DNA from: an uncultured Gemmatimonadaceae bacterium
GTDB taxonomy: Bacteria > Gemmatimonadota > Gemmatimonadetes > Gemmatimonadales > Gemmatimonadaceae
Assembly: GCA_963829055.1 (NCBI GenBank)
Contig: CAWHHI010000011.1
Location: 384,001 to 448,000 of the forward strand
DNA: 64,000 nt
Direction of reading: 5' to 3'
Under the pieces are notes generated by a model, which saw only the letters and a program-made list of their open reading frames with translations, was not told the origin of the DNA and searched no databases. Each line of letters starts with the position of its first letter. Position 1 is the first letter of the stretch. A program made the position numbers and the translations under genes. Shown here piece by piece: positions 1 through 64,000 of the stretch.

Positions 1-1349
1 ATCGGCATCGACGGCAACGTGCTGCTCTTTCTCCTGGCGCTCTCCGTAGTCACCGCGGTGATCTTCGGCGTGCTGCCGGCGCTGCAGATGTCGCGCGGGA
101 TGCCTATCGCGTCGCTTCGCGAAGGCCGGACGCGGTACGCGCGGCGGCATCGCCCGCCGTGGGCTGCGGCAGGCGCTGGTCGTGTCCGAAGTGGCGCTGG
201 CGGTGGTGCTGGTGGTGGGTGCGTCGCTGCTCGTGAAGAGCTTCTGGAAGATGCAGCGCGTGGACCCTGGCTTCGTGCCCGATCGCATGCTGGTCGTGCA
301 GATTCAGCTTCCGCAGTCGCGTTATGCGGGGTTCGCGAATGGCGATCGCGTGCGCGCGTTCTACGCCGATCTGTATGCGCGCCTCGCGGCACGGCCGGAG
401 GTCCAGTCGGTCGCTGTAGCGATGCAGCACCCGCTCTCACCCGGGTGGACGTCGAGCTTCACGATTGCCGGCCGCGAGCCGCCGCCTGCCGGTCAGGAGC
501 CGGAGTCGAGCATCCGCCCTGTGATGCCGGGTTATTTCCGCGCGGTCGGCGCGAAGCTGCTTCGTGGACGCGAGATCAAGGAATCGGATGGCGTCGGCGC
601 GCCGGGTGTCGTCGTGATCAACGAGGCGTTCGCGAGGCTGCACTTCCCTAACGAGGACCCGACTCGGTCGGCGTATCGAGCGCGCCTCGTGGTGGAAGGG
701 CATGCCGTCGTCGTACGAGATCGTGGGCATCGTCGCGGACGAACGATTCAACGGACCGCGCGCGCCAGCCGATCCGGCGACGTATTTCTCGCTCGCGCAG
801 TTCACGTTCAACGACAACTGGCTGCTCGTGCGCACGAAGACGGACGCGAAGGCATTCGCGCCGATGCTGCGGCAGATCGTGTGGTCGATGGACCGCGATC
901 TCCCGCTCGAGAACGTCCGCACCATGGACGAGATCCTCGGAGACTCGGTCGCGGATTCCCGGTTCAATACGGTGCTGTTGTCGCTCTTCGCGGTGGTCGC
1001 GCTCGTGTTGGCGGCAATCGGGATCTACGGTGTGCTGGCCTACATGGTGGCGCAGCGCACGAGCGAGATCGGACTTCGGATGGCACTCGGCGCGCAGCGC
1101 TCGAGTGTGCTGCGACTCGTGGTGGGCAACGGACTCACGCTCGCGATCATCGGAGTGGCGATCGGCGCGGCGGGAAGTCTCGTGGCCACTCGGGCGCTCG
1201 AGCGACTGGTATTCGGCGTGAGCACGACGGATCCCGGTGTGTTCATTGCGGTGGCGGTGGCGCTCACGGCGGTCGCAGGGACTGCAGCGTTGGTCCCGGC
1301 GCTGCGGGCGAGCCGAGTAGACCCGATTATCGCGATACGAAGCGAGTGA
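1..1349 (+). CDS. ADOP-family duplicated ABC transporter permease (MacB/FtsX-like), 5'-truncated by window, frameshifted
   Basis: Joined frames give 'VLLFLLALSVVTAVIFGVLPAL', 'SEVALAVVLVVGASLLVKSFWKMQRVDPGF' and 'LAAIGIYGVLAYMVAQRTSEIGLRMALGAQR...PALRASRVDPIIAIRSE*', typical of ADOP permeases. Confidence 0.9.
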
Positions 1350-1397
1350 TTCCCGGGGTCGAGTTCGGATCAGCGCGGGTCAAGGCCATCGCGCCGG

Positions 1398-1631
1398 GGC
1401 CGGTGGGAACTGCGATTGCGCGGATGTACTGCGAAACGGCCGGATACGGCTTTGCATTGACGCGGGCTCATCGCCGGACCCTGAACTAATGGGAACGGCC
1501 GCTCGGGACGTATCCTGCGTCACGAGCGGCCGTTCCCAAGAATCCCGGCTCGTTGCGTGAGGAGCGTGGATGCTACCGAGCGGTATCCTGATTCTTCCGT
1601 TTCATCCGCCCAATCGCAGTTCCCACCGGCC
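1398..1631. repeat. Long nested palindromic intergenic element between convergent genes
   Basis: 1399-1426 is the reverse complement of 1603-1630 (27/28 match); central hairpin 1490-1538 has a perfect 16-bp stem TGGGAACGGCCGCTCG/CGAGCGGCCGTTCCCA; weaker pairing extends to about 1352/1657. Confidence 0.85.
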
Positions 1632-1663
1632 GCGAAGCGCTATGCGACTCGACCTCGGCCCGC

Positions 1664-2082
1664 CTAGCCGACGAGATCCATTTGACCAGCATCGCCACCT
1701 TCGCGATGCCCATCGCGGCAATCGGCAGCAGCGTTAGGCCCACCGAGAAAATCAGCCCCTGCCGGAACAATGGCGGGCCCACGCGCGGGGTCTCGTCGCG
1801 CCACGCGCGCTGCATCGCCGCCTCGGTCATGAATCCGAGCGAGTAAAAGAGATTCGCCAGCACGCCGTAGGCGACGATGCCCGGCCAGAGCATCGACAAG
1901 CTCAAGCTCATCGAGAACGGCGGCAGGAGTGCCAGCACCTTCAGCGCCGTGATCGTCACGAGGCCGGTCGCACCGACGACGACGTTGAACGTCAGGCGGC
2001 GCGATTCCCACCACCGGAGGATTCCGCCGGTGTTACGCACCTCGGCGGGCGCGGGAAAGAGGACACGTGTGAGGGCAGACAA
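1664..2082 (-). CDS. Hypothetical integral membrane protein (about 3 TM segments)
   Basis: ORF 'MSALTRVLFPAP..WWESRRLTFNVVVGATG..GIVAYGVLANLFYSLG..FRQGLIFSVGLTLLP'; true stop probably near 1664 (the ORF-track version runs on into the palindrome). Confidence 0.7.
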
Positions 2083-2325: not shown

Positions 2326-2399
2326 CGCGGGCTGCCCGTAGTGGCCGAAGCGCGCCGACTCGTCCAGCGTTAGGCACCCGGAGCAGCCCAGCGCCGCAG

Positions 2400-5300
2400 T
2401 CAGGGCCCGAAGTCGAGCGCCTTTCGCAGCGTGAGGCCGTCGCGACGAAATCCAACCGCGACGAAAGCGCCCGAGTGTGGGCTGCGCGTGGCCGCCGCGC
2501 CATCGATCGTTTCGATCTCGAGGTCGTGCCGCCGCTGGCCTCCCGGAGACGGCAGCGACAAGTGCGCGACGAGCGACTCGGCCGCGGCGCGCGCGTCCTC
2601 CTCGGACGTGTCCGCTGCGACGATGATGCGCCGACCGCGCGCTTCCGCCGACATGATCACCCGACCCCGCATGGTGACGAGCAGCGCCCCGCGCCCCCTG
2701 CGGCCGCGCGAGCGCGGGGCGATCGTTCTCGTCCACGACGAGCGGCAACGCGTAGGCGTTCGCCGGGTCGGTCACCGACATCGTGACGGCTGGAGCGCTC
2801 GCATCGGCAGCCGCGTCTCGTAGCGCATCCACCGCGGCAGCCGAGGCGAATTGCGCACCAGCGAGCCCGCGAACGAAATAGCCGCGGCGGACTTCGCCAC
2901 GTAATTCCAGTCGGCGCAGCTCGCGGTAGATGAGTCGCCACGACACCGCGGGCCGTTCGCGTCGCCACCAGTCTCGCGTCACGATCCCGTAGCGATCGAG
3001 CCATTGGCGCGCGATCGCCTCGGCGCGGGTCTCATCGTCCTCGGCCGGCCCCATGATGCCCGGCGTCCTAACGAGTGACCAGCGGCCGACCCAGCCGTCC
3101 CGCCCGCCCGGCAGATCGGGACGTCGCCATTTCGGCAACCGCCGGAGGTTTGGACGTCGCTGCACAATCGGTCGGCCAGGCGAGGGCGAGAAGTCAGCCG
3201 GAAGCCAGCGCGTCGGGTCCGGATCGTCTCGACGATTCCCTGGGAGCAGCGGGCGAAACCTGATGACTTCGCGCAAGGCTTCCGCACTGTCGTTCGTGAC
3301 GAGTCCCGCCGCAGCGAGCTCGCGCAACGCTTCTCGCAGCGCGAGCATCGTGAGTCCTGTCGCGGCTTGCAGGTCGCTGACGAACGACGCGCCGTATGAT
3401 CGCAGCACTTCCACGGTCTTTGTCGCGGCGTCGCTGAGCGCTGCCTTCGCAACCGGTTGCTGCGTGCCGCCCGCGTCGGGCGAAGGGTCAGACGGTGCGA
3501 GCCACCGTGACGCCGTCCCGCGCTCGACGAAGCGGAGCCCCGTGAGCGCGCGCGCCTCGCTGCGCTCCGTCGAACCGGCGTCGCCGATCCAGACGACTGC
3601 GCCGCTCTGCGTGAGCGTGCTGAGCGCCGTCGCGTCGTACGGCCTAACGCGAGACGGCAGGTAGTCGCGCTCCCACGCCAACGGCGGGACGAACGATGCC
3701 GGCAAGCTGACGCACCGCCACGCCAACACCTTCGCCACCGGCGAGACGATCGCGCGGGTCGAGGTGCTGCCACCGCTGCAGGAACGCCACGAGGTCCGGG
3801 AGACCTACGGCCGTGATCTGCTGCCTCGCGTGTCGCCAGCGCTCGGCGACGCGCGTGCTCGAGCACGCGCCGCGAACACCAGCGCGCCACACTTCGATCG
3901 TTGCCGTAGAAGCCGCGAACGAGCTTCCCTTCCCGCTGCCACTCTTCGAGGCGCGCGGCGATCCACGACTCGGGAAAGTCGTACCGAGCGCGGATCTCGT
4001 CGACCGACACGGGGCCCGAGAGTGTCAGCCACCGTGCGAGAATCTCCCGCCGCGCTGCGCCGCGACTGAGTACGGGCTCACGAAGCGTGGCGGGCACGAC
4101 GTCGGCGGCAGGGCGCGCGTCGAGGTCCGGTCCGGACTCGTACGATCGTACCGGCGTCCAGACGCGAATGCGGCCGCATAACGCGCGAACGTCTCGGTGA
4201 GGATCAGCCGCGTCGCTCCGTCCTCCGCCGACGGCGTGCTCGCGGCGGGGACGTCGATGCCGATCAGACGCGTCGCTCGCGAGAAGATCGACGAGCGGAT
4301 CGCCGCGGGTCCATCGGGCCGGATCGGCGACGCGCTCACGGGCTTCATCGAGCGTGACGTCACCCGCGCGGTCGATGAGCGCTGCAAGCTCGTCGGCGTT
4401 TCGCGCGCGACGATTCGCGCGCGGTACCACGCCGAATCGCGAGCACTTCGTCGATCGCTTCCGTCGTTTCGGGATCGGCGCCTTCGCTGCCCATGACTTC
4501 GTCGAGCAGCGCGCGGTCGAGCGAGAGATACGCGGCCCGCTGTTCGGCGCGCGGCGTGTCGTCGACGTACAGCCAGTCCATGACGAACCCGAACTGCAGC
4601 GACGCCGCGAACGGCGACGGCCGATCGAGCTCTACGACGCGAACGCGGATCGCACCGCTGCGCAGGTCGCCGAGCACGCGTCGCGAGCGCGGACATGTCG
4701 AACGCGTCCTGCAGCACGTCGCGATACGTCTCGACGAGAATCGGGAACGACGGGAACGCTCTGGACGGTCTGCAAGCAGATCGAGCGCCTTGAGTCGCTG
4801 CAGCCACAGCGGCATGCGCGTCTGCGGATTGCCGCGCGGCAGGAGCAGCGCACGAGCAGCGTTCATGCGGAAGCGCGCGCCGAACAGCGACGTGCTCCCG
4901 ACTTCGTCGAGGATGCGCCGCTCTGCCTCGGCGGCTCGAGCCCGAGGATCGCGTCGACCGGAATGCGGTCCGCCGAGGTTGGGCAGGCGAAGCATGATCC
5001 CATCATCGGTCGTTTGACTTGAACATCGGGACTGGGAACTCGGGAACCGGGAACCGGGTCTCCCGAACCAGTTGCCGGTTCCCCGTTCCCTGTTCCCGAT
5101 TCCCGACAGCGCTTCGCGCACGCGCTGCGCCAGCGCCATTCCCCACGGCGCGTTCACTCGACCACCGAACGGCGCGTGCAGGACGATGCGAACGGCGCCG
5201 ACCTCGTCGCGGAAATGCTCGAGCACGAGCTCGCGGTCGTCAGGCACCGAACCGCACACCGCGCGTTGCTCGCGCACGTAGCCGACGAGCGAGCGCATCG

Positions 5301-7172
5301 TCGCCCGGTCCGCGGAGTAGCGCGTCGGCGAGCACGTCGAGCGCCGCTTCGTCATCCGGATCGACGCCGCGACCGTGCGACGCAGCTCGCCGATGCGGTG
5401 GCTCAGGTGGAACGAGCGCGCCATGTACTCGCCGTGCCAGAACGGCATCCGCGCGGGCGCGCCCGGGCGCCGGCGTCACGATGACGCGGTCGTGCTCGAT
5501 GGCCGAGATCCGCCACGTGCTCGAGCCGAGCTGGAAGACGTCGCCGACGCGCGACTCGTGCACGAACTCCTCGTCGAGCTCGCCGAGTCGCGTGCGGTCC
5601 GGAAGATTGACCGTGTAGAGACCGCGATCGGGGATCGTTCCGCCGGAGATGACCGCCGTCATGCGACTGGCGCGCGATCCCGTTAGGCGATCGGTCACGC
5701 GGTCCCACGTCAGGCGCTGCGCGAGCTCGGCGGCGAGGTCCGACGGATACTTCCCGGACAGCATCGCCAGCACTTCGTCGAACGCGGCTCGCGTGAGCGT
5801 CTGGTACGGATACGCCCGTCGAACGACGCTCGAACAGATCGGCCGACGTCCAGTCGTCCACCGACACCGCGGCGACGATGACCTGCGCGAGCACGTCGAG
5901 CGCGTTGTGCACGACGCGCGTCGGCTCGACGTCGCCGTCGCGCATCGCCTGGACGATCGCCGGTGAGCTCCATCGCGTCGTCGAGGAACGTCGGAACGAA
6001 CACCCCGCGGCTCACGGCACCGAGCGTGTGCCCGGCGCGTCCGACGCGCTGCAGTCCGTTCGCGACTCGCTTCGGGCTCTGGAGCTGAATCACGAGATCG
6101 ACCGACCCGATGTCGATGCCCAGCTCCAGGGAGCTCGTGCTGACGAGCGCGCGCAGATCACCGGCCTTGAGGCGCTGCTCGAGCAGCAGGCGTCGCTCGC
6201 GCGACAGCGACCCGTGATACGGCAGCGCGAGCTGCTCGTCCGGCGAGCGTGTTGATGCGCGCCGCCATGCGCTCTGCCTGGCCGCGATTGTTCACGAACA
6301 CGAGCGTCGTGCGCGCCGCGCGGATGCGCTCGAGCACGAGCGGCGCGACGGACGTCCAGATCGTGCCGCCGACGTCGCTCAGGTCCGGGACCGGCGAGAC
6401 GATCGCCGTCTCGGTCTTCTTCACGAGGCCGCAGTCGACGATGCGGCAGTCGCGCGCGCCGACGAGAAACCGCGCGATCTCCTCGAGCGGTCGCTGCGTC
6501 GCCGACAGGCCGATGCGCTGCAGCGGGCGCCCAACGAGATGCTCGAGGCGCTCGAGCGTGAGCGCGAGGTGCGCGCCGCGCTTCGTGCCGGCCACCGCGT
6601 GGATCTCATCGACGATCACCGCGCGAAGCGCGCTGAACATGCCGCGGCCCGCGCAGGCTCGTGAGCAGGATGTGCAGCGACTCGGGCGTCGTGATGAGGA
6701 TGTGCGGCGTCGTGCGCATCATCCGCGCGCGCGCGGACGCGGGCGTGTCACCCGTTCGCACGGCGACGCGGATCTCGGGAAACTCCTCGCCGTCCGCGAT
6801 GAAGCGCTCGCGCAGCTCCGCGAGCGGACGCTCGAGGTTGCGCTGGATGTCGTTGTTGAGCGCCTTGAGCGGCGAGATGTAGAGGAGGTGGATCGCGTTC
6901 GCGAGCGGACGCTCGAGGCCATCGGTGATGAGCGCGTTGAGCTCCCAGAGGAACGCCGCGAGCGTCTTGCCCGTGCCGGTCGGCGCGAGGATGAGCGCGT
7001 TCTCGCCGCTCGCGATCGCCGGCCAGCCCCTGCTGCTGCGGCGCGCTCGGCGCGCCTAACGTTTCGGTGAACCACCGGCGGACGATCGGATGGAAGTCGC
7101 GGAGCGCCGCTTGCGCGGCCGGTGCTGCGCGCGAACCACGCGACCGGCGTGCCCGCCTCGCGGCGTCGCCAT
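2400..7172 (-). CDS. lhr: Lhr-family long DEAD/DEAH-box helicase (multiple indels)
   Basis: Joined frames: '[16 protein letters not shown]', Walker A 'LAPTGTGKT', '[25 protein letters not shown]', 'GLSATQRPL', 'LQRVGRAGH', '[11 protein letters not shown]', '[20 protein letters not shown]', C-terminal 'LDRYGIVTR...[17 protein letters not shown]'. Confidence 0.9.
5026..5106. repeat. Palindromic GGGAACC-type repeat insert within lhr
   Basis: TCGGGACTGGGAACTCGGGAACCGGGAACCGG...CCGGTTCCCCGTTCCCTGTTCCCGATTCCCGA; reads '[26 protein letters not shown]' between the conserved blocks '[17 protein letters not shown]' and '[12 protein letters not shown]'. Confidence 0.7.
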
Positions 7173-7411: not shown

Positions 7412-9851
7412 GTGCTTCAAGATATTCGCTACGCCGCGCGGAAGCTTTCGCGCACGCCCGGCTTCACGCTCATCGCCGCGTTCACGCTCGCGCTCGCGAT
7501 CGGCGCGACGACCGCGATCTTCAGCGTCATCGACGGCGTGCTCCTCAAGCCGCTGCCGTTCCGCGACCCCGAGCGCGTCGTCCGCGTGACGAACATGCGC
7601 GACGGGAATCGCATGGTCGTCGTCGGTGCCCGGACTTCCTCGACTTCCGCACCCAGATCGAAGTCGTTCTCGTCGATGGCGGCGATCGACAATCAGGCGA
7701 TGAACCTGACCGGCGGCTCCGAGCCCGAGCGCGTGCAGGCGGCGCGCGTCAGCGCGACGTTCTGGAGTCTGCTCGGCGTCACGCCGCCGATCGGCCGCGG
7801 CTTCGCGCCGAACGAGGACGCGCAGTCCGCCGGGCGCGTCGTCGTGTTGAGCGACGGGCTGTGGAAGCGACGCTTCGGCGCCGATCGACGCATCGTCGGC
7901 AAGACGATCGCGCTCGACGGCAACACGCTACACCGTGATCGGCGTCGCGCCGCCGCGGTTCAGCTTCCCGGACCGCCCCGACGTCTGGGTTCCGCTCGTC
8001 TTCTGCACCGGACGACCTCAATCCCGAGAACCGCGGCGCGCACTGGATGGGGATGATCGGCCGTCTCGCGCCTAACGTGACGGTCGCGCAGGCCACGGCC
8101 GAGCTGGTCACGCTGACCCGGCGGCTGGAGCAGCAGTATCCCGGAGTCGAACACGAACATGACGCGGCGCGGTCATCCCGATGCAGGAGTACATGGTCGG
8201 CGATGTGCGTCCGGCGCTCTACGTCATGCTCGGCGCCGTGGCGTTCGTGCTGCTCATCGCGTGCGCCAACGTCGCGAACCTGCTGCTCGTGCGGGCGGCG
8301 TCTCGCGAGTCGGAGATGGCGGTGCGCACCGCGCTCGGCGCCGGGTGCGTGGCGAATCGTTCGGCAGCTCGTGACCGAGAGCGTGCTGCTCGCGGTCGTC
8401 GGCGGCGTGTTCGGAACGCTGCTCGCGCTGTGGGGCGTGGACCTGCTGCTCGCGATGGCGCCTAACGGGTTGCCACGGATCAACGAGGTGACGGTCAATC
8501 GGCACGGTGCTCCTGTTCACGGCCGGCGTCGACGGCGCTCACCGGTGTGCTGTTCGGGTTGTTCCCCGCGCTTCACGCGGCGCGCGCGAACGTGAGCGGC
8601 ATGTTGAAGGAGGGCATGCGCGGCTCGAGCGGCGGCGTTGCGAGTCGCCGCGCGCGCAACAGGCTCGTCATGGCGGAGATGGCGCTCGCCGTCGTGCTGC
8701 TCGTCGGCGCCGGACTGCTGATCCGCAGCTTCTCGCAAGCTGCTCGCCGTCGATCCCGGGTTCCGCGCGGAGCGCGTCGTCACGTTCGCGATTGCGGCGC
8801 CGGATACGAAGTACGGTCAGTACGCGCAGCGTCGCGAGCTCGTGCGCCGATCTCATCGAGCGCATGAAGCGCGTGCCGGGAGCGCAGGGCGCGGCGATCG
8901 TCACCGGTCTGCCGCTCGGCAACATCGATGATGCGCACGTCTGCCCACATTGTGGGCACGCCTCCGGATCGGCCGGCGGAGCGGAAGTCCACGGACGTCG
9001 CGATGGTGACGCCCGGGTATTTCACGACCATGGGCATTCCGCTGGTCGGCGGGCGTGACTTCACCGATCGCGACGGGAGCGGCGCGCCGGTCGTGTCGAT
9101 CGTGAATCAGGAGTTCGTCAAGCGCTACTTCCCTAACGAGAACCCGATCGGCAAGCGCATCGCGCTCGGCTGGGACCAGGACACCGCCTCGACGGGTGGC
9201 AACATGACGCTCGGCGGCGAGATCGTCGGCGTCGTCGCCAACGTGAAGCGGCGCGGCCTGAGCCAGGAGGTCTTTCCGGAGACGTACGCGTCGTACATGC
9301 AGCCGACGTTCTCGAACTTCTCGGTCGTCGTGCGGTCGACGGCGGATCCGTCGACGGTCGATGGCGGCCATTCGCGCGCAGGTTCGTGAGCTCGATCGCG
9401 ACCTGCCGTTGAGCGAGCTGCGTCAGCTCAAGGAGCTCGTGTCGGCGTCGGTGTCGCGGCCGCGGTTCTACACGACGATCCTCGGCGTCTTCGCGTCGAT
9501 CGCGCTGATTCTGGCGGCGGTCGGGATCTACGGCGTGATCTCGTACGCGGTGAGCCTGCGAACTCGCGAGCTGGGGATTCGGATCGCACTGGGCGCGACG
9601 GGTCGTCAGGTGTCGGGGCTCGTGCTGCAGCAGGGCGTGGCGCTCGCGATCGCCGGTGTGCGTGGTTGGCGGCGCGGGCGCGTACTGGCTCACGCGACTT
9701 CTGAGCAAGCTGTTGTTCGGCGTGAGCGCGACGGATCCGCTGACGTTCGTCGGCGTCGCCGGCACTTCTGACGGCGATCGCGGCGCTCGCGTCCTTCGTT
9801 CCGGCTCGGCGCGCAGCGCGAGTGGATCCGCTGCTCGCTATGCGAGAGTAA
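7412..9851 (+). CDS. ADOP-family duplicated ABC transporter permease (multiple indels)
   Basis: GTG start '[50 protein letters not shown]', '[17 protein letters not shown]', '[25 protein letters not shown]', ends '[11 protein letters not shown]'. Confidence 0.92.
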
Positions 9852-18435: not shown

Positions 18436-18439
18436 CCGC

Positions 18440-55830: not shown

Positions 55831-58322
55831 ATGAACGCTCGGTCGGTCCGCACGTCCGTCCTGCTGCTCTTCGCCATCTTCATGGCTGCCTGTCAGCAGG
55901 CCGCGAACACCAGCGCCGACGCCACGAACGAGCTGGCGAGCCGGCCGCGGCTGCCGACCGGGGCGTATCTCGATCCGGTCGTCCCCGCGTCTGCCGTCGG
56001 GTCGATGCCATTGGCCATGGTGCTCGCGCCGGGCGGCGGACAGATCGTCGTGCTGCTGAACGGGTGGCGGGAGCAGGGGATCCAGATCGTCGATCGGCAG
56101 ACGGGCCAGGTGGCGCAGACGCTTCTCCAGCCCGCGGCGTTTCTCGGGATCACGTTTTCGCCCGACGGGCGGACGCTGTACACCTCCGGCGGGAATCAGG
56201 ACGTCATTTACCGTTACGACTGGGCCGCCGGACGCGCGACGCTCGCCGACAGCATTCCGCTCGCGGTGAAAGAGCCGGATCGCTCCGGGCGATCGTACCC
56301 CGCCGGCATTGCCGTCTCTCGCGACGGGTCCCGGCTGTACGTGGCGGAGAATCTCTTCGACTCCGTCGCGGTGTGGATGTCGCTTCGAAGCGCGTCGTGC
56401 AGCGATTCGCGACCGAGCGCTACCCGTACGGTGTTGCCGTCGCGCCTGACGGACGCGTCTTCGTGTCGGCCTGGGGCGGCAACACCGTCGCACTGTTCCG
56501 GCCTAACGCGGACGGCAACCTGCAGGCCGACGGACAGCTCCGCGTCGCGCGCCACCCCTCCGCGCTCGCGCTGTCGAGCGACGGGTCACGCCTGTTCGTC
56601 GCATCGGGCAGCACCGACCGCATCGCGGTGGTGGACACGCGCGCGAAGCGCGTCATCGCCGAGCTCAGCGACGCACCGCCCGCCGGACCGCGTGAAGGCA
56701 GCACGCCTAACGCGCTGGCGCTCGATGCCACCGGTACCCGACTCTACGTGGCCGAAGCGGACAACAACGCCATCGGCATCTTCGATCTGTCGCCAGCAAC
56801 GTCCGGCGTGGCGACCGCCACCGGCCGCGACAGCCTCGCCGGCCGAGTGCCGGTCGAGTGGTACCCGACGGCGGTAATCGCCGCCGGCGACACGCTGCTC
56901 GTTGCCAACGGAAAGGGCCGCGGCACCGCGCCTAATCGCGACTACCCGCACCCTGGCACTGGCGTACACACCACTCGACCCCAGACGTACACGCTCGGCC
57001 AGCTGAACGGGTCCGTTCTGGCGGCGCCGGTCGCGCGCGCGTCCGGGCCGGATCTCGAGAGCCTAACGCGACGGGTGGAGCGCGCGAACGGCTGGCGCGA
57101 GGTCACGCGCGACGCGACGTACCCGCCATTCGAGCACGTGATCTACATCATCAAGGAGAACCGCACGTACGATCAGGTGTTCGGCGACATGACGCAGGGC
57201 GACGGCGACACGTCGCTCGTGTTCTTCCCGCGCGCGAACTCACCGAACCATCACGCGCTCGCCGATCGCTTCGGACTGTTCGATCGCTTCTTCGTGAACG
57301 CCGAGGTCAGCCCGGACGGGCACAACTGGTCGATGGCCGCGTACGCGACGGATTATCTGGAGAAGACAGTGCCCGTCGAATTATTCCGGGCGCGGGCGGA
57401 CGTACGACTGCGAGGGGACGAACCGCGACCGCGTCCCATCCGACGAGGGCGCCGAGGACGCCTCCGAGCCGGCGAACGGCTACTTGTGGGACCTCGTGCA
57501 GCGAAAGGGACTGACGTTCCGGAACTACGGCGAGTTCGTGATCCCGGAACGGGACGAACCCTAACGCGACGATGCCCTCGGGATACCGCGGCGTCAAGCC
57601 ATTCCTGGCGGCGAACACGAACCGCGATTTCCCGCCGTTCGACATGAACATCACCGACCAGCGTCGAGCGGACATCTGGCTGGCCGAGTTTCAGCAATAC
57701 GTGCAGCGCGGCACCATGCCGTCGCTGATGATCGTGCGTCTGCCTAACGATCACACCGCGGGCGCGCGTGCCGGCGCTCCGACGCCGCACGCCTACATGG
57801 CCGACAACGACCTCGCGCTCGGCCGCGTCGTCGAGGCCGTCTCGAAATCTCCCTTCTGGAAGAACACGCTCATCGTCGTGCTCGAGGATGACGCGCAGAA
57901 CGGGCCGGATCACGTCGATTCGCATCGCTCCGTCCTGCTCACCATCTCCGCGTACTCGCGCGCCGGGACCGTGCATCGGTTCACCAATACCACGGATGTA
58001 CTCGCAACGATCGAGGACGTGCTGGGCCTCGACGCGCTGTCGCAGTTCGATCACTACGGCCGGCCGTTGCGCGAGATCTGGACGACGGAACCCGACCTCA
58101 CGCCCGTACACGGCGCTCGTGCCGTCAGTGTCGCTCGACGCCAGGAATCCGGCGTGGCGGCCGCGACGCGCGCGAGTCTGCGACAGCTGGACTTCGACTT
58201 CGAGGACGTCGCCGAGGAGCGTGCATTCAACCGGGTGCTGTGGCGCGACGATCAAGGGAGAGACGGTCCCCTATCCCGGCATCAACCGAATGTCGGCGCT
58301 CGAATGGAAGCGCGGTTGGTAA
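55831..58322 (+). CDS. YVTN/YncE beta-propeller plus phosphoesterase (alkaline-phosphatase-like) lipoprotein (indels)
   Basis: 'MAAC' lipobox; propeller repeats 'FSPDGRTLY', 'SSDGSRLFV', 'EWYPTAV'; 'HVIYIIKENRTYDQVFGD', 'LPNDHT', 'EDDAQNGPDHVDSHRS'. Confidence 0.88.
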
Positions 58323-58396: not shown

Positions 58397-59405
58397 ATGA
58401 CCACGAAGCGGTGGGTACTCACCGCGCTCTCGTTCCTGCTCGCCATCGGCGCGTCGGTGTACATCATCCGCTCGAGCTGGTCGGCGGAAGGGGCACGCGT
58501 GGGACTGCCGCTGTGGGGTCACCTGGCATGCCTCACGGCCGCGTCGCTCGAGGTACTGACACGGTCCATCAAGATCCGGCTGAGCGGCGCGCGCTGTCCG
58601 AATTCCACTGACGCTGCGGACGGCATTTCGCGTGTCGTTAGGCGGAGACTTCGCCGGGTCCATCACGCCCTCGCGATCGGGCGGCGAGCCCGCGCGATTC
58701 CTCATTCTTCGCGAAGCCGCGTTGCCGGTAGCGGACGCGCTCGTGATCCTCTTTCTCGAGCTGTCGCTCGAGGTGCTGTCGCTCGCCTCGCTCGCCGTGA
58801 TCGTCTACGCCGTGCTCGGCGGATCGTCGAACGCGGTACGTGGACTGGTCGGGATGGTCGGCGTGTACTCGACGTTGGTGATTGCTGCCGGCGTCGTCGG
58901 CTTGACGGCGTCGCGGCGGTGGGCCGACGGCCCGCCGCCAGCCTGGCTTCATCGCCTGGATGTGAGCGACCATCGCTGGCACAACATGCAGCGCGCGCTT
59001 CACCATCTGCGCGACAACGTGGGGAAGCTGCGCCAGGCGCGGTGGTGGGTGCTCGTGAGCGCGCTGCTCTTCTCGATCATGCACGTCGCGATGCGCCTGT
59101 CGGTGCTGCCCATCGTCGTCTATGCGCTCGGTGTTCGTGCGCCGATTGGCCCGCTGATCCTCTGGCCGCTGGCGATCATGTACGGCGGGAACGCCGCGCC
59201 GGCACCGGCTGGCGGCGGGCTCATCGAGGTCGCGTTCCGCGGCGCGCTCGACGAGTACATCCCCGTGCAGATCTTCGGCGCCGCGCTCCTCTGGTGGCGC
59301 GTGTATACGTTCTACATCCTGCTCATTGCCGGCGCGCTCGTGACGGGCGCGACGGTGATGCGCGCGCTACGGCGCAACGGAGACGCAGCACTGGAGGACG
59401 AGTGA
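58397..59405 (+). CDS. Lysylphosphatidylglycerol-synthase TM/flippase-like (UPF0104) membrane protein (indel)
   Basis: 'ITPSRSGGEP', 'PAPAGGGLIE', 'LLWWRVYTFY'. Confidence 0.8.
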
Positions 59406-59417: not shown

Positions 59418-59744
59418 ATGGCGTTTGATGCGGGGCTCGTGGAACGCGTGGCCGATGTACTTCTGCAGATCGGCGAGCGCGGCGTCAGGCAGAAGAACGT
59501 CTTTGGCGGGCGGGGGTTTCTCGTCGGCAAGTCGACGTTCGTGATCGTCTGGGGCGAGGGCTTGCTGGTGAAGACCACAGCGGCAGAGTACGACGACCTC
59601 CTGGCGCAACCTGGAATCGAGCGGTTCGCGCCGGGCGGCGAGGGGAGCATGGGCACGTGGCTGGTCGTTCCCGCCGATGCCATCGCGGACGATCCGGAGC
59701 TCACGGAGTGGGTTCGTCGCGGCCTCCGCGGGATCAGGCGTTAG
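59418..59744 (+). CDS. TfoX N-terminal-like domain protein
   Basis: 'MAFDAGLVERV', 'KNVFGGRGFLV', 'LLVK', 'MGTWLVV', 'ELTEWV'. Confidence 0.75.
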   Translation: MAFDAGLVERVADVLLQIGERGVRQKNVFGGRGFLVGKSTFVIVWGEGLLVKTTAAEYDDLLAQPGIERFAPGGEGSMGTWLVVPADAIADDPELTEWVRRGLRGIRR

Positions 59745-59778
59745 GCGTTACTCCAATGTCCTCCCGGTGATGAGCGAT

Positions 59779-60229: not shown

Positions 60230-61952
60230 CTAGCCGCCCTCGCACGGGCGCCTGACGGCGACGACTGTTCCGGCCTCACCCATGGCCGTCGCGCGATCGA
60301 TCTCTTCGATACTTCCGCGCATCATCGAGCCCGGCGGACCGGACAGGCGCACGCGATCGGTGCGCGTTCCGTAACTCCACTCGAGCTCGACGGCGTCCGG
60401 CCCCGCCGGTCGCCACAAGCCGTTAGGCAGCGTGCCGACGCGCGCGAGATCGCGCGCCCGATACCACACCCCGTCGGCATTCGCTGGCACGATCTCCGAA
60501 TCCAGCGCAATGCGCCGAGGCACCTGCCGAAATCCAGTGCGTGCCTGCGCGGCGGTGGGCGTGATGCCGAGCTCGTAGCACCCAACGGCGTTCGACTGCG
60601 CGGCGGTGATCGGCGCACCAGGAGGCGCGTCCGAGGTGGCTGCGGCCGTGCGCTTCCGAGCCGCCGCCGTCCCCGTCGTCACCACTTCACTCAGCGCGAC
60701 GCTGCTTGGCGTGAGCACGATATCCGCGTTCGTCGACTGCCCCGCCACGACGGTGACGTCGCGACCGACGGTGTCATAGCCAATGCGGCGAACCGTTAGG
60801 CGGCGGGCACCCGGTGCCAGTCCGCCGAGCGTGAATTCGCCAGCGGCGTTCGTGGATACGCCCGTCTCCGTCCCCGCGACGCGCACCATCGCGCCTTCGA
60901 GCCCGGTGTTGTTCGCATCCGTGATGCGACCACGCACGATTCCGGTCGCAGCCGATACGTTCGCGGCGTCCGCACGAACCGAATTGGCGTTGGCACGCTG
61001 GGACCTGGCGATTGCCGAGCCCGCAGCGAGTGGGCTGACAGCTCTTCGCGCCGCGTATCACGATCGCCGACGAATCGCGCCCGCGGCTTTTCGGTCGCGA
61101 GGACCGACGCCGGCGGCGGTGCCTTCTTGAGCTCATCCCTCGCAACGCTGTCTTGCTTCGCGAGCGATTGTCGGCGCAGCTCGGCCGGCGCGACGAATCC
61201 GTCCTTCGCGCGGTCGTCCACCGATGTCTTCGCCGACGGAGGCGGCGGTGCGCCCGGCGCCGACGCCGCGCGTTGCGGAGCTGGAGCACTCTCGCGCTTC
61301 GCGTCGGCGACTTTCTCGCTCGATTCCAGGCGAGCCGCGTCCCGAAGCGTGCGTGTGTCGGCGGGAGCGGATGCGACCCGCGGCTGGCCAGCCGCAGCCC
61401 CCGCGGCACCTAACGACTGCGGCGCCGGCGCGGCCGGCGAAGGCGCCGCCGAGGGCACTACCGCACGGCCTCCGGACGCAACGGCAGACGACGGCACCGC
61501 CGAATCGGCGATCGGGCCGGACGCCGGGGACGACGCCTCGGTTTCGCTCAGAGCGCGCATGTCTGGCCCGCTCGCTCGCATCAACGCGAATGTTCCGACC
61601 GCCATGACCACAACAGCGGCAGCCGCGAGCGACGGACCTCGGAACCACCGCCGCTGCGCGCGCTGCTGTCGCCTGCGATGACGACCGCGGCGCGACGACA
61701 GGGGCTGCCGGCGTCTCGGCTCCGCGCTCCGCATCCGATCGAGGCGTGGACGGTAACGGAACGACGTCGCGCGGGACGCTGTCGAGCGACATGAGAATGC
61801 GCGACGAAGCCGCGATCAGCCCACGCGCCTCCGCCACCGCGTCGGCACACGGCCGGCACGCGGCGACGTGCTCTTCGACGGCCCGCGCCTCGTCTCGGAG
61901 GCAACTGGTCATCGAGCCACGCGTGGATCGTTCCCTCGTCAAGATGCTGCAT
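60230..61952 (-). CDS. zf-HC2 anti-sigma factor fused to a periplasmic carboxypeptidase-regulatory-like domain (indels)
   Basis: 'MQHLDEGTIHAWLDDQL', 'HVAACRPC', TM 'LAAAAVVVMAVGTFAL', Ala/Pro linker, 'RGRITDANNTGLEGAMVRVAG..TNAAGEFTL..VRRIGY', 'LSEVVTTG'. Confidence 0.8.
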
Positions 61953-62475
61953 GTCCTCCTCCTGCTGCGCCGCGGCGCCCTTCGGCCTGCATTGCCTCGT
62001 ACGCCTCGGCGAGTCTCCGGCGAGCACGCGCGAGCGTCGTTCCAATGGAGCCTGGTGACAATTCCAGTGCCTCCGCGATCTCGTTGTAGTCGAGCCCTTC
62101 CTCGCGCATGAGCAGCGCCAGTCGGTCGCGCTCCGCGAGTGCTTCCACCGCCTTTCGCGCGAGCGCGGCTTCCTGAGCTCGCTCGAGCGATGAGGGCTCG
62201 GGTTCCTCCATCTCTCTCGCGCGTTCCTCATCTGCGAGGATCGCGAGGTGACGGCGACGCCGTTCATCCTTCCGTGCCTCGTCACGCACGAGGTTCGTGG
62301 CAACGGCGAACAGCCACGACCGCTCGCTCGCGAGCGTGTCCTGCCGGAGGGCGCGCAGGAAGGTTTCCTGCGCGACCTCTTCGGCCCAATCGCGGTCGCC
62401 GAGGCGCCGGGTCAGGTACCGCACGAGAGCGGTGTTGTAGGTGCGGAACAGTCGCTCGACGTCTTCGTCCTTCAC
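61939..62475 (-). CDS. ECF RNA polymerase sigma factor
   Basis: 'AEEVAQETFLRA', 'SWLFAVATNLVRD', 'GLDYNEIAEAL', 'GTTLARARRRL'. Confidence 0.93.
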   Translation of the reverse strand: MKDEDVERLFRTYNTALVRYLTRRLGDRDWAEEVAQETFLRALRQDTLASERSWLFAVATNLVRDEARKDERRRRHLAILADEERAREMEEPEPSSLERAQEAALARKAVEALAERDRLALLMREEGLDYNEIAEALELSPGSIGTTLARARRRLAEAYEAMQAEGRRGAAGGGHAAS

Positions 62476-62535
62476 GGCCTCACCGGTCTTGCCTCTGGCT
62501 ACGTCCGGCGGCGAGCCGGTCCAGCGAGCATGCGC

Positions 62536-64000
62536 TCACCAGGCCGCCTCGGTCGCCGCGACATCTCGCGCGCTGAGCGTTTCGACACCGTCCTCCACGA
62601 ATGCGACCGCAACGGCGCGTCCCGCCACGACGATACCCGCGTTGCTACCCGGACCGACGAGCGAGAGCGGTGCGCGCAGATCCTCGATTCGCTCGAGCAG
62701 CGCGAAGTACGCGGACGAGTACGGCTTCACTCGAACCGTGCGCATGGTGCTGACGTAGCGTGCATCGGTCCAGGTGCCCGCTGCGAGGGTGAACGTCCGT
62801 GTCCCGATACGACGCGTCGTCGCGCCCGCTGCACCGCTGAAATCTGCGCTGGCGGAGTCGACAGCGGACAGGGTGGTCGCGGCGCGCTGCGCGGCCGCCG
62901 TCTTGGCCATGTCGAACCGCTGTTCGCGGGTCAGCTCTGCAGGCGCGGACGCCGGCATCGGACGGGCCTCGTCGCGCGCCGACCCGGTCCCGGCACGCGT
63001 GTCCTTGCGATCGACCGCGACCGCGGTGCCCGTCACGACAACCTCATTGAGACGTGCAGAGGAGGCGTTGCCAAGCTTGCCTGGATGCTTGCATGCCCGG
63101 CTCGAGCACGAGATACGACGACAGCTCGGTCGGTATCCCGTAACGGGTGCCGAGCGTACGCAGCTCGTCGTCGAGCTCGGGCGACGCGCCATTGCGTCGA
63201 CGCTCGGCCGAGAGCCACCCGGCGCGCTGCGCCGCCCACAGGCGGGCGACAAAGCTGTTGCGGCGCTCGCGATCAGGGAAACGCACCTGCTCCGTCCACG
63301 TCACGGGACCATTCGCGGTGCGACCTTCGACGACGATGCGTCCGTTGCCGTCGCCGGAGTAGCGCGCGAACAGGACGAGGTCCTGACCGGCGAAGATGTC
63401 CGTGGGCAGCGACGGGTGCAGCTTCGTCAGGCGAACGCCTTCCGCCCTAACGCGGACGTCGGTGACGATCGGACTCGTTATGCGCGTGGCGACGAGCGAC
63501 ACCGCGCGCTCGACGGACTCGTCGGGCCGTACGAATTGCGCGGTCCCGCGACCGTCGACGGCAAGTTGCTCGACGAGCGCGGCGTTCACATCGGCGCCGA
63601 CGCCGAACGTGAACACGCGCGCGCGGCCTCGCACCCGGCTCGCCAGCGCGGCGATGCGGTCTGCGTTGCGCTCGCCGACGGTCGGCTCGCCATCGGTGAC
63701 GAAGAAGACGATGGGCATGCGTGCTTCGTCGGTGGGCGTGTCGAGTGCTTCCTCGAGCGCGCCCGAGATGTTCGTGGATCCCTCGGGGCGGAGATCATCG
63801 AGGTAGCGGTTCGCCTCGTCGATGTTCCGGCGCGTGGCGGTGGTGAAGCCGTTGCCGAACGTGCGGACGTCGGTCGAGAAGTCGATGATGCGAAAGCGAT
63901 CCTGCGATCCGAGCGATGCGAGCATCTGCCGGCCGGCGGCGCGCGCCTGCTCCATCTTCTGGCCGCGCATGGAGCCGGACACGTCGACGACGAACGTGAG
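62536..64000 (-). CDS. VWA-domain protein (VIT/VWA-like), 5'-truncated by window, indel near 63090
   Basis: MIDAS 'VVDVSGSM', 'GSTNISGAL', 'FVTDGEPTVG', 'FTFGVG', 'RLWA', 'YGIPTELSSYLV', C-terminal 'IGTRTF..GTWTD'. Confidence 0.88.

What the first reader, a model, noticed from the sequence alone, without database searches (positions are those of the whole stretch)
647..63452. Highly iterated non-palindromic heptamer CCTAACG/CGTTAGG throughout the window
Seen in sequence: a manual scan found at least 55 exact copies, about 31 as CCTAACG and 24 as CGTTAGG. Examples: 647, 1732, 2368, 3067, 5681, 7055, 8071, 8461, 9132, 12471, 16697, 18439, 20997 and 21006, 25165, 31309, 32383, 38357, 45122, 47477, 53110, 56502, 56706, 57062, 57743, 59739, 63446. 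A rough zero-order expectation at about 69% GC is about 7. Most copies lie inside genes and are accommodated in different frames with rare codons: CCT-AAC (Pro-Asn; FPNE at both 647 and 9132), CTA-ACG (Leu-Thr; TGLTNLF at 12471), TTA-GG (Leu-Gly). It also supplies stop codons (TAG at 18440, 21007, 53111, 59744; TAA of padR) and overlaps the riboswitch P3 hairpin. Established: HIP1 of cyanobacteria and the DNA uptake sequences of Neisseria/Pasteurellaceae show this frame-independent enrichment, whereas Chi and KOPS are strand-polarised, which this motif is not within the window. Inference: a lineage-specific iterated signal such as an uptake sequence, a methyltransferase-linked HIP-like motif or a nucleoid-protein site. 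I do not recognise it as described.
Basis: partly seen in the sequence, partly recalled or inferred. Interest (0 to 1): 0.85.

Follow-up and report, generated by a model that had tools for sequence, protein, structure and literature searches.

The report
Genome-wide iterated octamer GCCTAACG
A soil bacterium of the little-known phylum Gemmatimonadota carries thousands of copies of one eight-letter DNA word, written into its genes by silent codon changes, much like the "self-DNA" tags of Neisseria and Haemophilus, and the word is the same as the core recombination site of integron gene cassettes.

Summary
The window holds 55 exact CCTAACG/CGTTAGG copies (31 +, 24 -) against about 3 expected. 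The full word is the 8-mer GCCTAACG. The 7.8-Mb Gemmatimonadaceae genome has 6391 heptamer and 5004 octamer copies, about one per 1.2-1.5 kb. It is not a miscall or a codon effect. A synonymous-codon shuffle gives 358 copies in called ORFs against 4225 observed. Copies avoid the two stop frames. Six congeneric assemblies and independent metagenome contigs carry them too. In rpoB the word is made by silent changes, such as CTC to TTA, at residues conserved in relatives. It is unpolarised, whereas GGGNAGGG is polarised in the same genome. Copies avoid each other below about 300 bp. The word is enriched only in several clades of Gemmatimonadales, 16 of 401 genomes in the phylum scan. I found no link to Vsr, three DNA-methyltransferase families, VirB4, TfoX or integron integrase. 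PilT and ComEC are present but not discriminating. The word equals the integron attC core site (R' GTTAGGC plus one base) of this order. Best reading: an uptake-sequence-like signal spread by molecular drive (about 0.35). A recombinase-linked origin is the main rival. I found no description of it in the searchable literature.

The parts
647..653 (+). motif copy CCTAACG; codons CCT-AAC in FPNE of an FtsX-type permease
1732..1738 (-). motif copy
2368..2374 (-). motif copy
3067..3073 (+). motif copy; present at the same place in G005, absent in G001 and G002
3643..3649 (+). motif copy; shared by all 4 species aligned
5681..5687 (-). motif copy; shared by all 4 species aligned
7055..7061 (+). motif copy; shared by all 4 species aligned
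8071..8077 (+). motif copy; shared by all 4 species aligned
8461..8467 (+). motif copy; its TAA is the stop of called ORF 8181-8465; shared by 3 of 4 species
9132..9138 (+). motif copy; FPNE in a MacB-type permease; shared by all 4 species aligned
10225..10231 (-). motif copy
11315..11321 (+). motif copy
12471..12477 (+). motif copy; codons CTA-ACG in TGLTNLF
14010..14016 (+). motif copy
16189..16195 (-). motif copy
16697..16703 (+). motif copy
18439..18445 (+). motif copy; gives the TAG stop of minus-strand ORF 18440-18784 (DUF2071)
20997..21003 (+). motif copy, first of a direct pair 9 nt apart
21006..21012 (+). motif copy; gives the TAG stop of minus-strand ORF 21007-21309
21659..21665 (-). 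motif copy
22489..22495 (-). motif copy
25165..25171 (-). motif copy
26187..26193 (-). motif copy
31309..31315 (-). motif copy
31817..31823 (+). motif copy
31941..31947 (+). motif copy
32383..32389 (+). motif copy inside the c-di-GMP-I riboswitch (32364-32444, minus strand)
33880..33886 (-). motif copy
35167..35173 (-). motif copy
36337..36343 (-). motif copy
37262..37268 (+). motif copy
37851..37857 (-). motif copy
38357..38363 (+). motif copy
38543..38549 (-). motif copy
40567..40573 (-). motif copy
43126..43132 (-). motif copy; overlaps the stop of minus-strand ORF 43128-43316
43729..43735 (+). motif copy
45122..45128 (-). motif copy
47477..47483 (-). motif copy
47920..47926 (-). motif copy
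50290..50296 (+). motif copy
51801..51807 (+). motif copy
52146..52152 (+). motif copy
53110..53116 (+). motif copy; gives the TAG stop of minus-strand ORF 53111-53368
56502..56508 (+). motif copy; no listed difference here in contigs of 4 independent runs (349 differences not listed)
56706..56712 (+). motif copy
57062..57068 (+). motif copy
57560..57566 (+). motif copy
57743..57749 (+). motif copy
58636..58642 (-). motif copy
59739..59745 (-). motif copy; its TAG is the stop of the TfoX_N gene 59418-59744
60421..60427 (-). motif copy
60794..60800 (-). motif copy
61409..61415 (+). motif copy
63446..63452 (+). motif copy

Best explanation
GCCTAACG is a real, heritable, genome-wide DNA-level signal. 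Shown: it is written into the chromosome at about one copy per 1.2-1.5 kb, equally on both strands and in every open reading frame. Shown: it arises mostly through silent codon changes and keeps a minimum distance between copies. Inferred: it behaves like the DNA uptake sequences of Neisseriaceae and Pasteurellaceae. In that model a surface DNA receptor of the type IV pilus/ComEC uptake route prefers fragments that carry the word. Conspecific alleles that carry it are then taken up and recombined more often. This molecular drive, filtered by purifying selection on proteins, fills the core genome until about every fragment-sized stretch has one copy. The receptor is not identified, and uptake and competence are not shown.
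For: Abundance: 6391 heptamers (3154/3237 by strand) and 5004 octamers in 7.78 Mb, against 373 for the reversed control word. Not a codon or protein effect: 4225 copies in called ORFs against 358 +/- 19 after synonymous shuffling. Context-specific codon choice: Pro-Asn before G uses CCTAAC 59.7% (CCT overall 8.7%). Leu-Gly after CG uses TTAGG 36.6% (TTA overall 1.7%). Leu-Thr after C uses CTAACG 23% (CTA overall 2.4%). All four non-stop frames are used. Only 26 of 2762 classifiable in-gene copies lie in a stop frame with coding signal on both sides. In rpoB of 16 genomes the word sits at 12 columns. In 7 of these the residues are identical in all genomes, and relatives that lack the motif at the column have CTC/CTG/CCG there. 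Gains are patchy among species, so recurrent. In a 7.4-kb syntenic stretch of 4 species, 5 of 10 motif sites are shared by all four, against 11.5% for any G000 heptamer. Strand symmetry holds despite a working positive control for polarity. Distances under 100, 200 and 300 bp are 0.29x, 0.41x and 0.56x of the exponential expectation, as expected if one copy per fragment is enough. Non-coding density is slightly higher (0.93 against 0.71 per kb), and 34% of TAA stops are CC-TAA-CG. Three motif-free blocks of 31-50 kb look foreign or chimeric. Uptake machinery exists: PilT in 46 of 46 genomes, ComEC in 5 of 5. The main repair and methylation alternatives lack their enzymes.
Against: No member of Gemmatimonadota is shown to be competent, and my search listed no paper on it (top 10 of 1385 listed). 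PilT and ComEC are just as present in motif-poor relatives, including G289. ComEA (TIGR00426) was not found in G000. No receptor candidate was found, and none of eight families compared between motif-rich and motif-poor genomes tracks the trait. Vsr, PF00145, PF01555, PF02384, VirB4 and TfoX_N were scanned over 46 genomes; IntI and ComEC over 31-genome or 5-genome sets. The same word recurs, without dialects, in clades that need at least 5 changes on the rpoB tree. In Neisseriaceae, dialects follow phylogeny. I saw no excess of inverted pairs as terminators: about 70 convergent pairs, few of them hairpins. The exact identity with the integron attC core is unexplained by a plain uptake model and points to a recombinase. 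Enrichment (about 13x the control word) is weaker than what I recall for DUS/USS.
Confidence: 0.35

Rival explanations
1. Recombinase-linked origin. The dispersed copies are mimics of the integron integrase R box (attC R'/attI R, GTTRRRY). They could be made or kept by a tyrosine recombinase. One route is short-patch gene conversion during abortive strand exchange between folded attC DNA and near-cognate chromosomal sites. Another is that they serve as attG-like landing or binding sites.
For: GTTAGGC fits the core-site consensus GTTRRRY, and GCCTAAC is the R'' of attC_aadB (passages read in PMC3053210 and PMC12901181). In cassette arrays of relatives G021, G019 and G029, R' is CGTTAGGC in 32 of 46 anchored attC sites, which is the full 8-mer. 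In motif-rich G300 and G236 the attC sites carry the 8-mer at both ends (R'' GCCTAACG, R' CGTTAGGC). In motif-poor genomes R'' is GCCTAACA in 33 of 46. The base 5' of CCTAACG is a purine in 91%, as in RYYYAAC. Many motif sites differ from orthologous sequence at 2-3 clustered bases. Integron integrases are common in the order, 18 of 31 genomes over the cut-off. Close pairs of recombination sites would be selected against, which also fits the spacing.
Against: IntI presence does not track the trait. It is present in motif-poor G289 (2 copies over the cut-off plus a third just under it), G008, G009, G021 and others. It was not found in motif-rich G397, G002, G004 or G010. Dispersed copies have no attC hairpin: only about 7 of 6391 loci look hairpin-like, and a G021 attC profile finds nothing in G000. 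No conserved flank exists beyond the 8-mer. G000's own IntI (C20:208041-208958) has no attC array beside it. Species differ by 14-17% (83-86% identity) in DNA, so clustered differences are not proof of one-step conversion. No such drive is known for any recombinase (my knowledge).
Confidence: 0.2
2. A chromosome-maintenance signal read once per region by a DNA-binding protein and kept by weak selection. Candidates are an unpolarised Chi-like site for AddAB, a nick or strand-discrimination site for repair, or a nucleoid-protein site.
For: Regular spacing with a deficit of close pairs. Conservation of sites across species above background. Presence in core genes. AddAB-like PDDEXK_1 pairs occur in G000, G289 and G008.
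Against: No replichore polarity, unlike the known Chi and KOPS words that I recall, although GGGNAGGG is polarised in this genome. AddAB-like genes also occur in motif-poor genomes, and RecC is in 0 of 5. Forcing very rare codons (TTA, CTA, CCT) into thousands of genes needs a stronger force than is usually ascribed to such sites (inference). Motif-poor sister lineages do without it.
Confidence: 0.15
3. HIP1-like drive by an orphan DNA methyltransferase, with or without a very-short-patch repair endonuclease, that keeps converting near-matches into the word.
For: HIP1 is the closest formal analogue: an octamer, all frames, conserved, quasi-regular spacing (abstracts of PMC5861425 and PMC4390886 seen in the listing). 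In G397, two single-transition neighbours of the word, CCTAGCG and CCTAATG, are at 0.12x and 0.10x of their level in G289.
Against: Vsr (PF03852) in 2 of 23 motif-rich against 7 of 23 motif-poor genomes. C5 methyltransferases in 3 of 23 against 8 of 23. No PF01555 or PF02384 hit in G000, G002, G004, G005, G236, G397 and others. The word is not a palindrome. Precursors differ at several positions, not at one deamination site. A site-by-site mutational process would not make copies avoid each other. Other methyltransferase families, for example Dam-like PF02086, were not searched.
Confidence: 0.05
4. Artefact: systematic base-calling error of a long-read assembly, or a by-product of codon or dipeptide usage.
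For: G000 is an assembly with many 1-nt indel errors. Genes are split, and there are 1-nt differences against independent contigs at 55706, 55708, 57371, 57550 and 63075.
Against: The same word is enriched in 6 other species of the genus, in assemblies of 260-1170 contigs, and in many other genera. Contigs of 4 runs from 4 studies cover the stretch, and none of the 40 listed substitutions hits a copy, although 349 were not listed. Copies avoid stop frames. The codon shuffle gives 358 against 4225.
Confidence: 0.01

Closest known systems
DNA uptake sequences (DUS of Neisseriaceae, USS of Pasteurellaceae)
   Same: A short specific word at about one per kb, equal on both strands, in and between genes. 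It is fitted into coding sequence by codon choice, missing from foreign DNA and more evenly spaced than chance. The type IV pilus ATPase and ComEC are present.
   Different: 8 nt rather than the 9-12 that I recall. Enrichment is about 13x a control word, weaker than I recall for DUS/USS. No dialects: the same word recurs in clades that are not each other's closest relatives. No excess of inverted-pair terminators. Uptake bias, competence and a ComP-type receptor are all untested. The phylum has no known competent member.
HIP1 (GCGATCGC) of cyanobacteria
   Same: An octamer, hyper-abundant, in all frames, conserved between species beyond background, with quasi-regular spacing and function still debated (abstracts).
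   Different: Not a palindrome. No cognate methyltransferase families were found in the motif-rich genomes. Patchy within one order rather than phylum-wide.
Integron attC core site R' (GTTRRRY) / inverse core R'' (RYYYAAC), and attG secondary sites
   Same: The sequence is identical. GTTAGGC/GCCTAAC plus the neighbouring base is the R' of attC sites in this order, and both ends of attC in motif-rich genomes carry it (consensus from PMC3053210 and PMC12901181).
   Different: Dispersed copies are bare 8-mers inside ordinary genes. They have no hairpin, no L boxes, no cassette and no nearby integrase. Integrase presence does not track the enrichment.
Chi and KOPS (strand-polarised architecture words)
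   Same: Over-represented oligomers read by DNA-processing machines.
   Different: Those are co-oriented with replication. Here the split is 298:367, while GGGNAGGG is 47:3 in one arm and 12:64 in the other on the same contig.

Membership tests
DNA uptake sequence (DUS/USS) | One short word hyper-abundant at about 1 per kb, equal on both strands, inside and between genes | tested here: met
   6391 heptamers and 5004 octamers in 7.78 Mb, 3154/3237 by strand; coding 0.71 and non-coding 0.93 per kb
DNA uptake sequence (DUS/USS) | DNA carrying the word is taken up or transforms preferentially | not testable with these tools
   Needs uptake or transformation assays with a motif-rich strain
DNA uptake sequence (DUS/USS) | Competence machinery present (type IV pilus, ComEC, ComEA, DprA) | tested here: inconclusive
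   PilT 46 of 46, ComEC 5 of 5, both also in motif-poor genomes; ComEA model gave no hit in G000 and only sub-threshold hits in genus g40; DprA not searched
DNA uptake sequence (DUS/USS) | Specific receptor (ComP-type minor pilin in Neisseria) | not tested
   No candidate identified; no ComP search run
DNA uptake sequence (DUS/USS) | Lineage-specific dialects that follow phylogeny | tested here: not met
   Same consensus GCCTAACG in G000, G014, G397, G010 and G030; only the weight of the end bases differs. Rich clades need 7 changes (at least 5 forced) on the rpoB tree
HIP1-type iterated palindrome | Palindromic octamer | tested here: not met
   GCCTAACG differs from its reverse complement CGTTAGGC (sequence itself)
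HIP1-type iterated palindrome | Cognate (orphan) DNA methyltransferases in genomes that have the motif | tested here: not met
   PF00145 in 3 of 23 rich against 8 of 23 poor; no PF01555 or PF02384 hit in G000, G002, G004, G005, G236, G397. Other methyltransferase families not searched
HIP1-type iterated palindrome | Over-representation in all frames with conservation beyond background | tested here: met
   5 of 10 sites shared by 4 species against 11.5% background
Chi / KOPS | Strong co-orientation with replication direction | tested here: not met
   Motif 298:367 between the replichore-oriented strands on C16; control GGGNAGGG 47:3 and 12:64
Integron attC site | Core site GTTRRRY and inverse core RYYYAAC | tested here: met
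   GTTAGGC/GCCTAAC; 5' neighbour is a purine in 91%; consensus from passages read
Integron attC site | Imperfect inverted repeat of 57-141 nt that folds as a hairpin, closing a cassette in an array near intI | tested here: not met
   No conserved flanks. No hit of a G021 attC profile in G000. Only about 7 hairpin-like pairs. No array beside G000 IntI. True arrays exist in G021, G019, G029 and G300
Very-short-patch repair product (Dcm/Vsr type) | Vsr endonuclease with a C5 methyltransferase in the genomes concerned | tested here: not met
   Vsr 2 of 23 rich against 7 of 23 poor; none in G000, genus g1, G014, G300 or genus g40

The most novel reading that the evidence does not exclude
The genome-wide word is the integron recombination core itself, put to a second use. 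One version: these Gemmatimonadales have a DNA-uptake preference tuned to the attC core (GCCTAAC/GTTAGGC), which would scavenge gene cassettes from environmental DNA, and the preference has by drive stamped the core site across their own chromosomes. The other version: an integrase-type recombinase writes its own site into near-matching chromosomal DNA by abortive strand exchange. Either would be the first known link between integron site recognition and whole-genome sequence composition. Thousands of chromosomal genes would then lie between integrase-readable sites, which bears on the unsolved origin of gene cassettes.
Probability: 0.12. Interest if true: 0.95.

Novelty: new variant of a known kind. 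Interest (0 to 1): 0.78.

Why it matters
Specific uptake sequences are established in only two proteobacterial families, and the function of HIP1 is still debated after three decades. This is a third system that looks independent. It is non-palindromic, has no methyltransferase that I could find, and lies in a poorly studied soil phylum. It comes with natural contrasts that make the cause findable: motif-rich and motif-poor sister lineages such as the g40 trio against G289, G300 against genus g26, and G030 against G020. The identity with the integron core site suggests a testable link between cassette exchange, DNA uptake and genome composition. In practice the word is a sharp marker for binning and for spotting chimeric or foreign DNA in Gemmatimonadales assemblies. 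If uptake bias is real, it also gives a handle for genetic tools in this phylum.

Tried and rejected
1. Maximal-order Markov ranking of heptamers was useless, because sub-words of the motif are themselves enriched.
2. My first GC3-based ORF caller covered only 48-69% of the genome. A codon-model caller reached 77%. Both are crude, because the assembly has frameshifts.
3. Earlier findings of this scan: nothing on record.
4. Rfam has no hit on the attC arrays.
5. Search for a determinant by presence or absence, all without association. IntI. ComEC: 5 of 5. ComEA. Vsr. PilT: 46 of 46. PF00145, PF01555, PF02384. VirB4: 1 of 46. TfoX_N: 16 of 23 against 13 of 23. RecC: 0 of 5, and PDDEXK_1.
6. A truncated IntI N-terminal ORF at G000:C4:2862-3170 was considered as a stand-alone reader. 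It is seen only in G000, G002 and G003, near contig ends, and is probably a remnant.
7. 'One-step multi-base conversion' as proof of templated writing was dropped, because the species differ by 14-17% in DNA (83-86% identity).
8. A different word in motif-poor relatives: none stood out in 80-kb samples of G008 and G018.
9. Laid contigs. Parts of the stretch have thin cover in some runs, and only 40 of 389 substitutions were listed. The absence of differences at motif copies is therefore only weak support.
10. Motif-free islands as prophages was rejected: they hold housekeeping genes.

Full report
**Observation.** One search finds exactly 55 copies of CCTAACG in the window, 31 on the + strand and 24 on the - strand. 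100 dinucleotide-preserving shuffles give 3.0 +/- 1.8 copies, with a maximum of 8. The window is G000:C11:384001-448000 of a 7.78-Mb, 20-contig, 66.7% G+C assembly that is 86% complete. Titles of the nearest rpoB relatives (82-86% identity) place it in Gemmatimonadaceae.

Genome-wide there are 3154 + 3237 = 6391 heptamers. The base before CCTAACG is G in 78% and A in 13%. The word is therefore the octamer GCCTAACG, with 5004 copies against 373 of the reversed control word. No flank beyond the 8-mer is conserved apart from codon periodicity. 41 of the window's 55 copies are full octamers.

**Real sequence, not an artefact.** G000 does have indel errors.
- rpoB, an Lhr helicase, MacB/FtsX permeases and a response regulator are split between frames.
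- Contigs of four public runs from four studies differ from it by single-base indels at 55706, 55708, 57371, 57550 and 63075.

The motif, however, is not an error.
- All six other species of the genus, in assemblies of 260-1170 contigs, have 2501-5112 octamers.
- 20 runs from 17 studies hold 28-55% of the sampled 31-mers of window 54001-64000.
- None of the 40 listed substitutions in the laid contigs falls in a copy, although 349 were not listed.
- Of 2762 in-gene copies that I could classify, only 26 lie in one of the two stop-creating frames with coding signal on both sides. Random miscalls would not avoid those frames.

**A DNA-level signal, not a protein or codon effect.** In crude ORF calls the word occupies all four open frames: Pro-Asn-G 1091, x-Leu-Thr 723, x-Leu-Gly 1413 and Val-Arg 540. 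Codon choice depends on the neighbouring bases.

| Context | Motif-forming codons used | Overall use of the rare codon |
|---|---|---|
| Pro-Asn before G | CCTAAC 59.7% (4-16% before other bases) | CCT 8.7% |
| Leu-Gly after ..CG | TTAGG 36.6% | TTA 1.7% |
| Leu-Thr after C | CTAACG 23% | CTA 2.4% |

Shuffling synonymous codons within each gene leaves 358 +/- 19 copies (maximum 396 in 20 shuffles) against 4225 observed. For the window's ORFs it leaves 3.5 +/- 1.7 against 27. This null is conservative, because it keeps the rare codons that the motif itself brought in. 307 of 903 TAA stops are CC-TAA-CG and 244 of 1895 TAG stops are CGT-TAG-G. Six window copies overlap called stop codons.

**Orthologous comparison.** In a codon alignment of rpoB from 16 genomes, motif copies occupy 12 columns.
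- Copies per genome: G000 4, G004 2, G005 3, G014 10, G030 3, and 0 in the eleven others.
- In 7 columns the residues are identical in all genomes (for example HPNGQ, SALGP, GGLTR, LALGA, IPNVA, NPLGV, QALGI). Two more are nearly so, and three lie in variable positions.
- At each column, the genomes that lack the motif there read CTC, CTG, CCG or CCC where motif-bearing genomes read TTA, CTA or CCT.
- Which species has the motif at a given column is patchy, so gains recur.

In a 7.4-kb syntenic stretch of four species of the genus (83-86% nucleotide identity), 5 of 10 motif sites are shared by all four, 2 by three, 1 by two, and 2 are single. Any G000 heptamer is identical in all three others in 11.5% of cases.

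**Distribution along the chromosome.**
- Polarity. Contig C16 has a clear GC-skew switch near 550 kb. There GGGNAGGG is 47:3 in one arm and 12:64 in the other. The octamer is 298:367 between the replichore-oriented strands. The word is therefore not of the Chi/KOPS type.
- Gene orientation does not matter (1814 sense against 1953 antisense).
- Spacing is more regular than chance. After dropping 8 gaps of 9 kb or more the CV is 0.88. Distances under 100, 200 and 300 bp are 0.29x, 0.41x and 0.56x of the exponential expectation.
- Motif-free blocks. Three exist: C6:5440-55038, C6:591808-623330 and C11:1-44055. They sit at contig ends and have 66-73% G+C. They hold housekeeping genes such as aro/trp genes, FtsK, GreA and GlnA. 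One 20-kb sample of them matches congeners only over 1 kb at 69-71% identity, whereas the window matches at 72-84% over most of the 20 kb compared. They are probably foreign or chimeric.

**Taxonomic distribution.** In 401 genomes of the phylum, 16 have more than twice as many octamers as the control word, by my reading of the table. All 16 lie in Gemmatimonadales.
- Family f1: genera g1, g43 (G300 4469), g40 (G236 3896, G293 4141, G397 3479), g37, g39, g45, g30, g33 and g42.
- Family f2: genus g73.
- None of the 136 genomes of families f4-f12 is enriched.

Typical genomes have 5-60 copies, fewer than the control word. One search adds G014 (6360 in 5.1 Mb), G010 (605) and G030 (345, family f3). 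G289, placed in genus g40, has only 66.

On an rpoB tree of 40 genomes the 19 rich rows need 7 changes, at least 5 of them forced by well-supported branches. Shuffled labels need 13.6 on average, and 0 of 500 shuffles were as low. One clade holds g1, g9, g45, g30 and g37, all of them rich. The trait is thus inherited over long spans and also gained or lost several times.

The consensus is the same everywhere. Anchored on TAAC, G397 gives G77 C74 C77 TAAC G61, and G000 gives G61 C73 C61 TAAC G74. 80-kb samples of motif-poor G008 and G018 show no other dominant word. Unpublished genomes appear only as motif-poor rows: G013, and G079, G118 and G199. No conclusion rests on them.

**The link to integrons.** In relatives with few copies, those copies cluster on one strand every 550-650 bp.
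- In G021:C95:1-24000 each copy closes a ~90-nt imperfect inverted repeat, GCCTAACA[A/C]GCGC..TGAAGCTG ... CAGCTTA[A/G]GCGC..C-CGTTAGGC.
- These repeats fold more stably than the G000 background.
- Such arrays lie next to integron-integrase genes, for example G021:C80. They are attC sites of chromosomal integrons.
- The literature gives R'' = RYYYAAC and R' = GTTRRRY, and GCCTAAC is the R'' of attC_aadB (passages read in PMC3053210 and PMC12901181).
- When attC sites are anchored on their internal repeat rather than on the motif, R' is CGTTAGGC in 32 of 46, CGTTAGAC in 4, and not found in 10. R'' is GCCTAACA in 33 of 46.
- In motif-rich G300, 13 attC sites of about 97 nt near intI (C2:838.9-853 kb) carry G[C/T]CTAACG at R'' and CGTTAG[G/A]C at R', so the octamer sits at both ends. 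One attC-like site in G236 does the same.
- G000 has a few similar solitary elements, for example C20:158140 and C9:93485.

The dispersed copies themselves are not attC sites.
- They have no hairpin partner. There are about 70 convergent pairs within 40-130 nt and only about 7 hairpin-like loci.
- A G021 attC profile gives no hit in G000.
- There is no array beside G000's own IntI at C20:208041-208958.

Integrase presence also does not track the trait. It is over the cut-off in 18 of 31 relatives, including motif-poor ones. It is present in G289, and it was not found in G397, G002, G004 or G010.

**Search for a determinant.** Twenty-three motif-rich and 23 motif-poor genomes were compared for six families.

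| Family | Motif-rich | Motif-poor |
|---|---|---|
| Vsr (PF03852) | 2 of 23 | 7 of 23 |
| C5 methyltransferase (PF00145) | 3 of 23 | 8 of 23 |
| PilT | 23 of 23 | 23 of 23 |
| VirB4 (PF03135) | 0 of 23 | 1 of 23 |
| TfoX_N | 16 of 23 | 13 of 23 |

- The sixth pair of scans, N6/N4 (PF01555) and N6 (PF02384) methyltransferases, gave no hit in G000, G002, G004, G005, G236, G397 and others, while both occur in many poor genomes.
- Smaller sets gave ComEC in 5 of 5 (including poor G289), ComEA absent in G000, RecC in 0 of 5, and AddAB-like nuclease pairs in both kinds of genome.
- Nothing tested tracks the trait.

**Reading.** The facts call for a force that acts on the whole word, on either strand, and once per stretch of a few hundred bp. 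It must be strong enough to install very rare codons in conserved genes, and it must be heritable but gained or lost between lineages.

The closest known behaviour is that of DNA uptake sequences spreading by molecular drive. I recall the drive model from Maughan and Redfield and did not read it here. I put this at about 0.35. The uptake machinery exists, but uptake bias, competence and a receptor are all unshown, and the lack of dialects is atypical.

The identity with the integron core site is too exact to dismiss. By my rough estimate, the chance that a given 8-mer contains this 7-mer is a few in 10,000. It supports a recombinase-linked rival (0.2) or a hybrid of the two, which is the novel case.

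The other rivals rank lower:
- A selected chromosome-maintenance site: 0.15.
- A HIP1-like methylation/repair drive: 0.05, since its enzymes are missing.
- An artefact: excluded.

**Novelty.** No relevant paper in the library holds the word (one hit, unrelated). None links Gemmatimonadetes with attC sites (two hits, unrelated). None in the listing links Gemmatimonas with transformation. HIP1 and DUS papers were seen as listings and abstract starts only.

Noticed in passing
window 32364-32444 (-) and 16056-16103 (-): c-di-GMP-I riboswitch (48.2 bits, with a motif copy inside it) and a guanidine-II riboswitch (39.1 bits) just upstream of the SMR transporter gene 15705-16034 (-).
   Followed up: partly
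window 2266-7000 (-), 7067-9771 (+), 41434-42127 (-), 42396-44857 (-); G000:C19:51343-51350: Genes split between frames: Lhr helicase, MacB/FtsX permeases, an OmpR-type response regulator and rpoB. Independent metagenome contigs lack single bases at 55706, 55708, 57371, 57550 and 63075. The assembly therefore carries 1-nt indel errors, and ORF-based annotation of it is unreliable.
   Followed up: partly
window 59679-60346: In four metagenomes this stretch has 10-50 times the summed contig depth of its surroundings, with many joints and loose ends. It is probably a repeated or mobile element just after the TfoX_N gene.
   Followed up: no
G000:C6:5440-55038, C6:591808-623330, C11:1-44055: Three motif-free blocks of 31-50 kb at contig ends, 66-73% G+C, holding housekeeping genes. 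One sample has only 1 kb at 69-71% identity in congeners. They are probably chimeric joins or foreign DNA, and the motif works as a marker for them.
   Followed up: partly
L119/L120 (G021:C95:1-24000), L124 (G021:C80), L121 (G019:C3), L122 (G029:C1), L252 (G300:C2:838.9-853 kb): Chromosomal integron cassette arrays in Gemmatimonadales: at least 26 attC sites of about 90 nt in G021, and 13 of about 97 nt in G300. A TfoX_N gene (G021:C80:5926-6174) sits between the array and intI.
   Followed up: partly
G000:C16, switch near 550 kb: GC skew changes sign and GGGNAGGG flips from 47:3 to 12:64. This is a KOPS-like polarised word and a replication origin or terminus.
   Followed up: partly
G000:C4:2862-3170 (-): Short ORF that is only the N-terminal domain of an integron integrase (105.5 bits to model positions 2-104), followed by stops. 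Similar pieces occur in G002 and G003 near contig ends. Probably a remnant.
   Followed up: partly
G000:C18:97494 (53 nt): Perfect 53-nt palindrome whose two ends are the motif and its complement (CCTAACG...CGTTAGG), folding at -30.4 kcal/mol. It resembles the inverted uptake-sequence pairs that act as terminators in Neisseria (recalled).
   Followed up: no
L149-L152 (G030), L153-L156 (G008): In 75-80 kb samples GGTGCTGG is 49 against 5 expected in G030, and GCTGGTGG (the E. coli Chi word, recalled) is 23 against 4.2 in G008. In G000:C16 both show a mild replichore skew. They are candidate Chi-like words of the group.
   Followed up: partly
window 28423-36018 (-): Run of ORFs with MBG (YGX-type) domains, probably one very large surface protein gene broken by frameshifts.
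   Followed up: no
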